Shown here: positions 5,202 to 17,411 of the stretch, one piece after another
How the letters are laid out: each line of letters opens with the position of its first letter
How positions within the stretch are numbered: position 1 is the stretch's first letter
Assembly (NCBI RefSeq): GCF_036971445.1
Contig: NC_091478.1
Coordinates: 104,842,001 to 104,906,000 of the forward strand
Length of the DNA: 64,000 nt
From: Narcine bancroftii
Taxonomy: Eukaryota
Direction of reading: 5' to 3'
Made by a program: the position numbers and the translations under genes
The notes under the pieces: model-generated
The model's database searches: none
The model's input: the letters and a program-made list of their open reading frames with translations, nothing else
What the model was told of the DNA's origin: nothing

Positions 5202-5315
5202 CTGAGCCGTTGAACACACTCGTAACATTTCCTTTGAGACTCCAGGAGGTGGAACGATTTTGTTGAACAATCCTGTTCTTAGCCGGGGTGTTGGGACTAA
5301 CAATGTTTTTCTAGC
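5202..5315 (-). CDS. MTHFSD: MTHFSD coding exon [38 protein letters not shown]
   Basis: 114 nt, tttatttctgtAG acceptor and CAG|GTGCGT donor; [16 protein letters not shown] is diagnostic. Later exons were not found in the window. Confidence 0.95.
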
Positions 5316-11074: not shown

Positions 11075-11430
11075 GTAAAAACACAAAATGCTGGAGCAGC
11101 TCAGCTGGTCAAACAGTCTCCTTTATGTAGCAAAGGCAAAAATACAGAACCAACATTTCGGGCTTGAGCCCTACATCAAAGTATGAGAAAATGCCGGCAG
11201 GTGTCTGAACAAGAGTAGGAGGAAGGAAAGGGGGTGGCAAAGACAGGATCCTGGAAAAATACAATGTGCTGAGTAACACAACCAACATCTGGGGGAGAAA
11301 AATTGCTGCTATTTCAGGTCAAAACCTTTCACCAAATTTGGATGAGGAGTTTTGACCCAAAATGTCAATAATTTCCTTTTCCCTCCACTGGTGCAACTCA
11401 TCCTCCAAGTTGTTCCAGCAGACTTTTTTT
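11075..11430. mobile_element. Penelope-type terminal fragments, including a fold-back pair
   Basis: The minus copy has TTGATGTAGGGCTCAAGCCCGAAATGTT at 11151-11180. The segment 11250-11430 has two such termini inverted about ~11337. Confidence 0.6.
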
Positions 11431-11633
11431 CTTTATGATTTCGAACCATTTTTAAGGGGTACAGAAAAAAAATAGAGTTGTTATAACAGCTACTGTACAA
11501 TGAGACATCCATAGGCATTCATACAGTGTGTTCATGATGGCAATTTTTATTCGAGATTTCATCTGAATCAAAATAAAAGCTTTTTGATTAAGGAGCATTA
11601 GTTCAGTCTTTTTTTAAAGTTTTGACTTATTAC

Positions 11634-11747
11634 CTGGAGAGTCGCTAAACGGATTCCTTCAAGCGGTTTGTCAGGGTCGACCTTCACATCTCTTGCTTTT
11701 ATGAAACAATCAAAGTTTTTGATTTTATTACAGGCATCATATGCACC
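11634..11747 (-). CDS. MTHFSD: MTHFSD exon '3b' GAYDACNKIKNFDCFIKARDVKVDPDKPLEGIRLATLQ
   Basis: 114 nt, phase 0-0, ctgcAG acceptor and CAG|GTAATA donor; matches the MTHFSD motif VKVDPDKPLEG.RL. Confidence 0.95.
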
Positions 11748-11776
11748 CTGCAGTGGCATAAGAAACAAAGACTTAC

Positions 11777-11892
11777 TTCTAGCACGAGCAAATAGATATT
11801 TTCCTGTGGCTTGTCAGGATTGACTTTGACAATCCGTGCATTTTTGAACTCTTGGAGACTTGGCAAATTTTCTGCGGCCTGAGCAGAAACCC
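11777..11892 (-). CDS. MTHFSD: MTHFSD alternative exon '3a' (..SAQAAENLPSLQEFKNARIVKVNPDKPQENIYLLVLE); frameshifted from AG 11893, in frame from AG 11879
   Basis: Paralogue of the neighbouring exon (VKVNPDKP vs VKVDPDKP) with a GTAAGT donor at 11776. Length 116 nt from the first AG or 102 nt from the internal tttctgctcAG. Confidence 0.8.
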
Positions 11893-13866
11893 CTGTTTCC
11901 AGAAGATGTGACGAATTACAATTAACAACAATCGGAAACATGGATGCTTTATTATATCTCCCACAATTTCAACTCTACGTGCACCCTTACAGCACATTAA
12001 CCTTTTTACCGACATAAATCTCTTATCTCATTACATCCTAAAAATTCTGGATTACACAAGGGGTTATGTTTCACTGTGGTATTTTGAGCACTGAGGTTGA
12101 AGCAATAAAACTGCAGTACACAGGCACTTAATTTTTCCTCCTGTAGCAAGCAATATATTCATTATTGAAAAACCAGTCGAGAAATATATATCCTAGAAAG
12201 GAATATTGTTGAAATATGTTCTAAAACATTGAATGGTAAAGTGGATTGGATAATAGATGATTACTGGACCTTCAAATCCAGTCTAGATGCACAGGGTAAG
12301 ACTATTTGTTGCTGGTAAATATCCCATGGCAATGTGCTGGCACAATATTCAGTTGTACAGAATACATGTATGGTCCTTTTAGTTCAGCACTGATTAAATG
12401 AGCAGCTCCAAAGACTATTGGATAGTTGGACCATGTAATGGTAGTGTTGAGCCACAGCATTAGGGCAAAGTCGAACTAGTTTTCAAGGCCTACCTATATA
12501 TGTACAAGGGGCTTGGAATTATTTCACACAGCACATTATTTTGACCAGCTATTCTCACCAGGGGCCATACAGCCCCCTCAGTGGCCACAGTACATTTAAG
12601 GGGACCTCAGATTGAAATCATTAAAAAAAAATTTCTTTTATGCAGTCAGTAGGAGAGAAGCAGGGAAGAAACCAACTAGACTGTTTCACAGGGAAGGGGG
12701 GCCATAATCTTTGAGCAGAATTCAAAGGGACCATAGCCAAAAAAGATTTTTTTCTGGTTGTCACAAAATGCCAATGTGCTCTGTCCTCTGTGTGTTTATT
12801 CATGTAAACACTCAACCACAAAGGTATCAAATGGCATACAACTCATGCTTGGACATAATGAGCAACAAGTAATGAGAGTTTATGTTATAGACATGAGTAC
12901 AATGTATAGATTCACCAAAAATATTACTTGCTGCAGCCAAACAGGTACATGAGATAAAATACCAACTCCAATACAATGCATTAAATTACAACAAAATGCC
13001 AAGGCAGAAAAATAGCTAATAAATTTTAAAGCATAGACAGTTGCATTTAGTGCAAGAAAATAAATGTGACAGCTCAATAGTGCAAAAAGATCATTACTCA
13101 TTTAAAACTTATTTGTACATGTATTGTCTCAGCACACATGAGCATAACCAGATACACAAGGCATATTTCTCTACTAGTTAATTCGAGGCTCGCGTACCAT
13201 ATTCACTGCTATGGAGCTTGGTGTATGTTACCTCTTACTGGTATGTTCCTTTAAAGATTTAAACACATCTCGAATCCAATTCAATCACCCCCCTACCAAA
13301 TCGAAGCCCAAATCTGCTTCAATTCTTCTATCCAATGCTATCAGCTCCAAAAATCTTGACCTGACATGAAGTTTCTATTTCCCCACCACCAACACAATCA
13401 TCACCCCTGAAGAGAACTCTAAGCCTCACTCCTCACGTATCCACAGGGGCTCCTATGGCCTTTTCTAATGCAATCCCCATCCCACCACTTGCATAATACC
13501 CAAATCCCTTTGCTCATTTCATTATGGCAGAGCTCGTGAGGGAAAGGCTTTTGACTAAGTTTTGTTTGTGGGACCATTTCTAATGAAGGTTGAATTTTAC
13601 TATCATTGCATTCTATTGCATAATGTAGAGATGAAAGTCTAATTTGCTGCAGTGTCTCTGGTACATAAAACACACAACACATAAATAGAGAGAAAGAAGG
13701 TAATAATCCACATAATGACATAGGCATCTAGGCAAGTCCTTGGTAAATGGTATACCTCTCAAAAGTTAAGATAATGTTGGCCTAACTATTCAAAATTTGT
13801 ATCTTGGACATTATAGAAGTTTGAAACAAAAATTAAATCATAACACAGGAGTGATGTTGCAGGTAA

Positions 13867-17307: not shown

Positions 17308-17411
17308 CTTGAAATTAGGAATTCTGTGATGAACTGGTCTTGGGAAGTTTGCCAAATTGTTTTTCTCCATGTAATCCCAAACCTTCTGCCGAATGTCCCA
17401 TTTAGTAACAC
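17308..17411 (-). CDS. MTHFSD: MTHFSD coding exon (G)[34 protein letters not shown]
   Basis: 104-nt exon bounded by tttcttctaAG and GTAATG; [13 protein letters not shown] is the MTHFSD/COG0212 signature. Confidence 0.95.

What the first reader, a model, noticed from the sequence alone, without database searches (positions are those of the whole stretch)
11777..11895. Exon 3a looks caught in transition: poison exon, shifted acceptor, or homopolymer error
Seen: from acAG (11893) the exon is 116 nt, not 114, and starts GGGTTTCT where GGTTCT would keep frame. After the phase-0 upstream exon it reads GFLLRPQK...ICSC and hits TAG at 11781-11779. A second acceptor, tttctgctcAG (11879), gives an in-frame 102-nt exon lacking 4 residues. 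The Arg of 3b (GIRL) is Tyr in 3a (NIYL). As recalled, 3a (VKVNPD.PQ) is closer to plant/archaeal COG0212 than 3b is. Inference: the ancestral-type exon may be turning into an NMD-coupled off-switch in this lineage.
Basis: partly seen in the sequence, partly recalled or inferred. Interest (0 to 1): 0.7.

Follow-up and report, generated by a model that had tools for sequence, protein, structure and literature searches.

The report
Dying alternative exon in ray MTHFSD
In the MTHFSD gene of a cartilaginous fish (likely a ray), one of two interchangeable exons that other sharks and rays keep intact carries a real two-base frameshift, and the assembled gene's RNA-binding domain is broken too, so this lineage is likely losing both parts rather than building a regulated off-switch.

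Summary
Observation confirmed. This is exon 3a of the known vertebrate MTHFSD mutually exclusive pair 3a/3b. The 116-nt length is not an assembly slip: a same-sample contig spans it without gaps. It is derived: one relative lacks exactly these two bases, and 20 of 21 cartilaginous fishes have an intact 38-residue 3a. Arg33-to-Tyr is derived too; Arg stands in 77 of 78 vertebrate 3a sequences. A second relative's contig breaks off into foreign sequence at the same codon. Four of four RNA-like runs splice exon 2-3b-4. New here: the gene's last exon, outside the window, has a stop before the RRM and a 2-nt deletion inside it (unchecked by reads), while exons 2, 3b and 4-7 are intact. Best reading: recent decay of two accessory parts. 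Any 3a inclusion would feed NMD as a by-product. A selected poison exon is not supported because the stop is not conserved, but inclusion could not be measured. The 102-nt acceptor would delete conserved residues. Lineage-specific loss of such exons is a known kind of event.

The parts
17308..17411 (-). MTHFSD exon 2 (104 nt), ends in phase 0 after RIPNFK
   Evidence: spliced to 3b in RNA contigs
11777..11892 (-). exon 3a, 116 nt, frameshifted copy of the ancestral-type exon
   Evidence: 92% identity to sawfish 3a
11887..11889 (-). T run holding the 2 extra bases, at the first base of the Ala2 codon; run X7 (organism B) stops matching at 11886
   Evidence: X10 '11887 left out 2'; X4 no gap; X7 loose end behind 11886
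11777..11878 (-). in-frame 102-nt form from the second acceptor (AG at 11880-11879); use not shown
11792..11797 (-). derived codons 32-33, Ile-Tyr; both relatives have Val-Arg (three base changes at 11797, 11794, 11793)
11779..11781 (-). premature TAG in the shifted frame, 116 nt before the exon 4/5 junction
11748..11776 (-). 29-nt spacer between 3a donor and 3b acceptor (30 nt in both relatives, 32 nt in human); too short to be spliced out
11634..11747 (-). exon 3b, 114 nt, intact, the form found in RNA
5202..5315 (-). exon 4, 114 nt, phase 0-0, intact

Best explanation
Exon 3a carries a real, lineage-specific two-base frameshift and a change of a nearly invariant arginine, and is likely a recently dead exon (a pseudo-exon in early decay), leaving 3b as the only working choice. 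Shown: the 116-nt length, its support in same-sample contigs, the 114-nt state in a relative, and exon 2-3b-4 splicing. Shown in the assembly only: a stop before the RRM and a 2-nt deletion inside it. Inferred: selection on 3a and on the RRM relaxed at roughly the same time on this species' own branch, while the enzyme-like core stayed constrained. Inferred: the 29-nt spacer still forces a 3a-or-3b choice, so a transcript that takes 3a would carry a premature stop and be removed by NMD, as leakage and not as a selected switch. Inferred: the 3a donor may persist partly because the branch point of 3b has to lie on or beside it. The predicted product is a 3b-only cyclo-ligase-like domain plus linker, with no RRM.
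For: Same-sample contig X4 spans 11540-11934 with 0 gaps; X1-X3 hold all 61 sampled words. Organism C lacks 2 bases at 11887; B and C both have Val32-Arg33. 20 of 21 cartilaginous fishes have an annotated 38-residue 3a, all with Ala2 and Arg33. Arg33 stands in 77 of 78 distinct vertebrate 3a, 43 of 44 3b and 109 of 115 distant rows. Differences shared by B and C against this genome: 3 non-synonymous and 0 synonymous in 3a, 1 and 4 in 3b. The 3a rate (3 in 110 nt) fits the intron rate (7 in 191, expectation 4.0). 4 of 4 RNA-like runs have an exon 2-3b-4 contig. The last exon has TAA at G000:C22:104831873-104831871 and a 2-nt deletion near 104831702; a retrocopy on C9 keeps Glu and Tyr there. 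The RRM is present in 21 of 21 other cartilaginous fishes and 112 of 115 vertebrate proteins. Taxon-specific loss of mutually exclusive exons is common in mammals (10.1101/133215).
Against: The substitution contrast is not significant: Fisher one-sided p 0.07, or 0.14 if the two changes in codon 33 are one event. Changed invariant columns are 2 of 16 in 3a against 4 of 140 in the core exons, p 0.12. The three 3a changes lie within 5 nt and may be one mutation. 29 rows of differences were not shown. The 3a donor (GTAAGT) and acceptor AG are intact, so there is no splice-site decay. Only one individual was seen at 3a, and contigs drop variants, so fixation is not shown. The RRM lesions were not checked against reads. 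In organism B the same codon is disrupted but Arg33 is kept, which a shifted acceptor would also explain.
Confidence: 0.62

Rival explanations
1. Selected poison exon: the inherited 3a/3b switch now tunes MTHFSD level by NMD, as SCN8A exon 18N does.
For: The stop lies 116 nt before the exon 4/5 junction, with three more junctions downstream, so the usual 50-55 nt rule is met (rule from general knowledge). Splice sites are intact. Precedent: SCN8A 18N is a mutually exclusive exon with an in-frame stop (PMC3809569). A second lineage (B) also disrupts the start of 3a.
Against: The stop is not conserved: C and 20 of 20 other species with a 3a are in frame. The nucleotide rate in 3a is not below the intron rate. 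In human both exons have low tissue Gini values (0.120 and 0.123), both peaking in testis at similar levels (PMC5740500 supplement rows; my reading of the columns), so there is no obvious tissue switch to inherit. The RRM loss suggests general relaxation.
Confidence: 0.13
2. Shifted acceptor: the AG at 11880-11879 took over and gives a 102-nt in-frame exon, freeing the first 14 nt.
For: The form is in frame with no stop. Both independent lesions (this genome and B) fall upstream of that AG and add pyrimidines before it, and B shows at most 5 differences and no listed gap in the remaining 110 nt.
Against: It removes Gly1-Ala2 (Gly in 86 and Ala/Ser in 95 of 115 distant rows) and most of helix 46-50 right after the invariant Ile40/Asn42 motif in the model. 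It would still carry Tyr33. Its pyrimidine tract is no better than the old one (8 against 9 of 17; 3b has 12). No such junction peptide occurs among the proteins retrieved.
Confidence: 0.11
3. The frameshift is a segregating or heterozygous allele of this individual; the species still has a working 3a.
For: All DNA support comes from one sample (S1), and contigs collapse variants.
Against: The same assembled sequence also carries Tyr33, Ile32 and two RRM lesions, which is much for a transient allele. The genome search found one copy only.
Confidence: 0.1
4. Assembly error in the short G or T run.
For: The lesion sits in short runs. The supporting runs are from the assembly's own sample and their library type is not on record.
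Against: Three runs hold all 61 sampled words, and a contig of a fourth run crosses the site with no gap (depth 3.4). The intact state is 114 nt, so an error would need two extra bases. An error cannot explain Tyr33.
Confidence: 0.03

Closest known systems
Human MTHFSD mutually exclusive exons (event 139, 'Vertebrata', in PMC8373072 supplement; cluster 1051 in PMC5740500 supplement)
   Same: Same gene position, two homologous phase 0-0 exons of 38 codons, NPD.PQ type first and DPDKPL type second, very short spacer (32 nt in human, 29 here).
   Different: Both human exons are 114 nt and in frame. Here 3a is 116 nt with Tyr33, and the assembled gene lacks an intact RRM.
Taxon-specific loss of mutually exclusive exon clusters in mammals (SRPK1, PQBP1, OSTF1, PTPRS; 10.1101/133215, passages)
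   Same: One lineage loses an alternative exon that relatives keep.
   Different: Here the dead exon is still about 92% identical to its working orthologue, it is the ancestral-type copy that goes, and a second domain is lost in the same gene.
SCN8A exon 18N (PMC3809569, passage)
   Same: A mutually exclusive exon that brings a premature stop while its partner gives the full protein.
   Different: 18N is expressed and regulated by cell type (RBFOX proteins promote 18A). Here inclusion and regulation are not shown, and the stop comes from a frameshift private to one lineage.
Plant and archaeal COG0212 (5-formyltetrahydrofolate cyclo-ligase paralogue)
   Same: Same domain; 3a shares its NPD.PQ and Arg33. 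The short prokaryote-type relatives (239-253 aa) end near the end of the domain, as the predicted truncated protein here nearly does.
   Different: The form kept here is 3b, the vertebrate-derived DPDKPL type, so the ancestral motif would be gone from this species' protein. Biochemical function is unknown in both (PMC4120688, passages).

Membership tests
MTHFSD exon 3a/3b mutually exclusive pair | two adjacent homologous exons in the MTHFSD orthologue, same phase | tested here: met
   single locus in G000 apart from a retrocopy
MTHFSD exon 3a/3b mutually exclusive pair | spacer below the ~50-nt donor-to-branch-point limit | tested here: met
   29 nt; limit from 10.1101/133215 section 7 and PMC7969005 passages
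MTHFSD exon 3a/3b mutually exclusive pair | both exons keep the frame and encode the same 38-residue segment | tested here: not met
   3a is 116 nt
MTHFSD exon 3a/3b mutually exclusive pair | junction evidence for each exon | tested here: inconclusive
   3b junctions in 4 of 4 runs; contigs cannot show a minor 3a form
regulated poison exon (SCN8A 18N type) | inclusion gives a stop more than 50-55 nt before a downstream junction | tested here: met
regulated poison exon (SCN8A 18N type) | the stop or frameshift is conserved across species | tested here: not met
   organism C and 20 of 20 annotated 3a are in frame; B has a different lesion
regulated poison exon (SCN8A 18N type) | included in vivo, regulated, stabilised when NMD is blocked | not testable with these tools
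   no raw RNA reads were offered
decaying pseudo-exon | lineage-specific frame-breaking lesion | tested here: met
decaying pseudo-exon | relaxed constraint on codons | tested here: inconclusive
   3N:0S against 1N:4S, p 0.07-0.14; Arg33Tyr at a 77 of 78 site
decaying pseudo-exon | decay of splice sites (a later-stage feature) | tested here: not met
   AG and GTAAGT intact
decaying pseudo-exon | fixed in the species | not testable with these tools
   one DNA sample only
in-frame rescue by a shifted 3' splice site | downstream AG keeps the frame | tested here: met
   102 nt
in-frame rescue by a shifted 3' splice site | conserved residues of the segment are kept | tested here: not met
   loses Gly1-Ala2 and helix start; Tyr33
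in-frame rescue by a shifted 3' splice site | junction used in RNA | not testable with these tools
   contigs only

The most novel reading that the evidence does not exclude
Exon 3a and the RRM form one functional module of vertebrate MTHFSD, an RNA-binding form built on the ancestral-type pocket. This ray lineage dropped both together, and a related species knocked out 3a independently at the same codon. What remains is a natural 3b-only, RRM-less protein, with the surviving 3a splice sites acting as an NMD rheostat. It would be a natural experiment that separates the enzyme-like and RNA-binding roles of a protein of unknown function.
Probability: 0.15. Interest if true: 0.6.

Novelty: new variant of a known kind. 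Interest (0 to 1): 0.36.

Why it matters
The 3a/3b pair is catalogued as vertebrate-wide and is intact in 20 of 21 other cartilaginous fishes examined, yet what either exon does is unknown. A living vertebrate that seems to run on 3b alone and without the RRM would show that the ancestral-type motif and the RNA-binding domain are dispensable while the core is kept. It also offers an early snapshot of how an old alternative exon dies, with splice sites still intact. The scope is modest: one gene in one lineage, and such losses are a known kind of event.

Tried and rejected
No RNA holder was listed as such by the run search; four runs were only guessed to be RNA, but their contigs are spliced. 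No contig of these four runs covers 3a: the depth of bin 11724-12137 equals exactly the 23 nt of 3b in it (6.82, 2.49, 3.07, 3.14; my arithmetic). This is not used as evidence, because contigs drop minor forms and the tissues are unknown. The joints table was swamped by intronic repeats, so the junctions were read from table 8. The loose end of organism B was not found in the window (up to 3 mismatches) or in G000 (up to 2 mismatches), so its nature is open; B has no laid contig over 11887-11962 and about 8% of that run was unread. The C9 retrocopy starts at exon 5 and cannot tell which exon 3 was used. A scan of prokaryote genomes with P0253 found no confirmed relative; names came from cluster look-ups instead. 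No residue-level mapping of Arg33 to a ligand site was possible: Foldseek gave only fold-level matches to 5-formyltetrahydrofolate cyclo-ligases (1YDM, 2JCB, 3HY6), the profile search did not print those alignments, and the structural aligner was busy twice. Read-through of 3a plus spacer plus 3b is out of frame from either acceptor (259 and 245 nt). The coding part of exon 1 was not found in the readable window. The RNA fold of the region was not compared with shuffles and is not used. In one search my 3b query column was off by one base; the family counts are unaffected and the frame was corrected. One paper search hit only clinical trials of a similar name. Supplement searches in PMC9741552 and PMC7954323 found no MTHFSD row.

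Full report
The locus. The region belongs to MTHFSD on the minus strand: exon 2 at 17411-17308, exon 3a at 11892-11777, a 29-nt spacer, exon 3b at 11747-11634 and exon 4 at 5315-5202. Exons 5-8 lie beyond the window's start, in G000:C22:104830500-104842500. The best named protein match is from the sawfish Pristis pectinata (92% over 3a), so the genome is probably a ray; I did not go further. The 3a/3b region is single-copy in G000. The pair itself is known: the supplement of PMC8373072 lists it as event 139, common ancestor Vertebrata, with two 38-residue exons 32 nt apart in human (supplement rows only).

From the AG at 11894-11893 the exon is 116 nt. Exon 2 ends in phase 0, so 3a reads GFLLRPQ...KISICSC and stops at TAG 11781-11779. 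The AG at 11880-11879 gives 102 nt in frame. 3a is the ancestral type. Of 133 alignment rows that covered the segment (from 150 representative proteins), 115 were under 60% identical to the query; Asn24 stands in 86 of them, Gln29 in 89 and Arg33 in 109. COG0212 of Rosa and Ipomoea and two clusters with archaeal members carry NPD.PQ; Bryopsis has Asp at 24.

It is not an assembly slip. Runs X1-X3 hold all 61 sampled words of 11500-12100. A contig of X4 spans 11540-11934 with no gap and one other letter, at depth 3.4. All four are one sample, three are flagged as a possible source of the assembly, and the library type is not on record, so this excludes an assembly indel better than it excludes a second allele.

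It is derived. The contig of organism C (X10, depth 16.9, 11424-12397) lacks 2 bases at 11887, which gives 114 nt. Organisms B (X7) and C both differ from this genome at 11793, 11794 and 11797, which reads Val32-Arg33 instead of Ile-Tyr. Among 21 cartilaginous fish species with retrieved proteins, 20 have a 38-residue 3a and all 20 have Ala2 and Arg33. For Hemiscyllium only one protein, a 3b form, was retrieved. These are mostly predicted gene models, some species labels were cut off and assigned by accession series, and the Pristis model strings 3a and 3b together. Arg33 stands in 77 of 78 distinct vertebrate 3a sequences and 43 of 44 3b sequences. Ile32 also occurs in Pristiophorus, so that change is tolerated.

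A second lineage. The contig of organism B (depth 12.5) matches 11443-11886 and then runs 31 letters into a sequence absent from this genome. Its first loose base equals the expected first base of the Ala2 codon, so the foreign piece joins right before codon 2, where this genome has its extra bases. I read this as an independent insertion. It rests on one contig end, and the other side was not seen.

Signs of relaxed constraint are suggestive only. Differences shared by B and C against this genome are 3 non-synonymous and 0 synonymous in 3a, and 1 and 4 in 3b (Fisher one-sided p 0.07; 0.14 counting codon 33 once). The 3a count, 3 in 110 nt, fits the neighbouring intron, 7 in 191. One search showed 40 rows and hid 29; B can differ at up to two more sites in the matched stretch. 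Invariant columns changed: 2 of 16 in 3a against 4 of 140 in exons 2, 3b and 4-7, all four conservative (p 0.12). The Ala2-to-Ser change may be part of the frameshift event. Splice sites of 3a are intact.

RNA. In 4 of 4 RNA-like runs (one study, four samples) one contig carries exon 2, 3b and exon 4 back to back with no other letters, at depths 122.7, 44.9, 55.2 and 56.5. So the gene is expressed and 3b is the assembled form. Contigs cannot show a minor or NMD-depleted 3a form, so neither 3a acceptor could be tested.

The same gene has lost its RRM in the assembly. In the last exon a TAA stands in the linker just before the RRM (G000:C22:104831873-104831871), and a 2-nt deletion near 104831702 makes a second stop inside it. 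A 5'-truncated, partly inverted retrocopy on C9, 79-91% identical by piece, keeps Glu at the first site and the two bases at the second, so both lesions are younger than the retrocopy. Over 102 RRM-region codons, 2 amino-acid differences map to the gene branch, 12 to the retrocopy branch and 4 are unpolarised, so the RRM stayed constrained until fairly recently. The RRM is present in 21 of 21 other cartilaginous fishes and in 112 of 115 vertebrate proteins; two of the three without it are named as lower-numbered isoforms and one is a UniRef model. Exons 5-7 are in frame with normal splice sites. Stops in a last exon should not trigger NMD (general knowledge).

Mechanism. The 29-nt spacer is below the roughly 50-nt donor-to-branch-point limit that enforces mutual exclusion (10.1101/133215 section 7; PMC7969005 passages). 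The last AG before the 3b acceptor lies inside the 3a donor (11773), so the 3b branch point probably sits on or beside that donor; this is inference. If 3a is chosen at 11892, the stop lies 116 nt before the exon 4/5 junction and NMD is expected. If it is chosen at 11878, the protein loses Gly-Ala and most of helix 46-50 after the invariant Ile40/Asn42 motif, and still has Tyr in helix 71-82 (model of the Hemitrygon 3a form, mean pLDDT 88.9). The domain folds like 5-formyltetrahydrofolate cyclo-ligases. The simplest account is that selection on 3a and on the RRM lapsed on this branch and both are decaying, with NMD clearing any leak (0.62). A selected poison exon (0.13) has a precedent in SCN8A 18N (PMC3809569 passage) but lacks conservation here, and the human exons look broadly co-expressed (Gini 0.120 and 0.123, both highest in testis; PMC5740500 supplement rows). 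The shifted acceptor (0.11) has one point in its favour: both independent lesions fall upstream of it. A private allele (0.10) and an assembly error (0.03) remain.

What is known. Taxon-specific loss of mutually exclusive exons is frequent in mammals (10.1101/133215 passages). MTHFSD is described as an RNA-binding protein altered in ALS (PMC8935057 passages), and COG0212 as a paralogue of unknown function linked to thiamin metabolism (PMC4120688 passages). Six searches (listings and abstract starts only) showed no paper on loss of exon 3a or of the RRM in any fish; subscription journals are mostly outside the library, and bioRxiv supplements were not seen. I also read passages of PMC9741552, PMC12772994 and PMC12215730 without bearing on the verdict. 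Four look-ups in the scan's own notes found nothing on this gene.

Verdict. A real, young break in an old alternative exon, most likely decay, made more interesting by the parallel loss of the RRM. New variant of a known kind; interest 0.36.

Noticed in passing
L003:1374-1065, minus (G000:C22:104831873-104831564), outside the window: Last exon of this MTHFSD has a stop before the RRM and a 2-nt deletion inside it; the RRM is intact in 21 of 21 other cartilaginous fishes. Not checked by reads.
   Followed up: partly
L002:2341-3232 (G000:C9, about 178703840-178704731): 5'-truncated MTHFSD retrocopy covering exons 5-8, with the 3' part inverted, as expected from twin priming by a LINE (mechanism recalled); keeps the pre-lesion RRM sites.
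   Followed up: partly
window 11886, run X7 (organism B): Contig leaves the locus into a C-rich foreign sequence just before codon 2 of exon 3a; possible independent insertion in a relative.
   Followed up: partly
proteins P0019, P0024, P0027, P0029, P0318, P0322, P0328, P0329, P0331, P0333: Annotated shark and ray isoforms that skip both 3a and 3b in frame, although the segment is in the core of the fold.
   Followed up: no
window 45193 onward and 54099 onward, plus strand; CpG-rich 40001-58000: Two long forkhead-domain ORFs (473 and 483 aa; FOXC2-like and FOXL1-like by recall) in an 18-kb CpG-rich block, matching the FOX cluster beside human MTHFSD.
   Followed up: no
window 17412-40000: The coding part of exon 1 was not found in readable sequence, although RNA contigs extend 85-101 nt beyond exon 2.
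   Followed up: no
protein P0226: An unnamed, mammal-like protein enters 3a at an internal point (…NFK A FKMART…), which suggests internal 3a acceptors are annotated elsewhere too.
   Followed up: no
protein P0145 (1810 aa): An unnamed protein with seven matched stretches of the MTHFSD-type domain.
   Followed up: no
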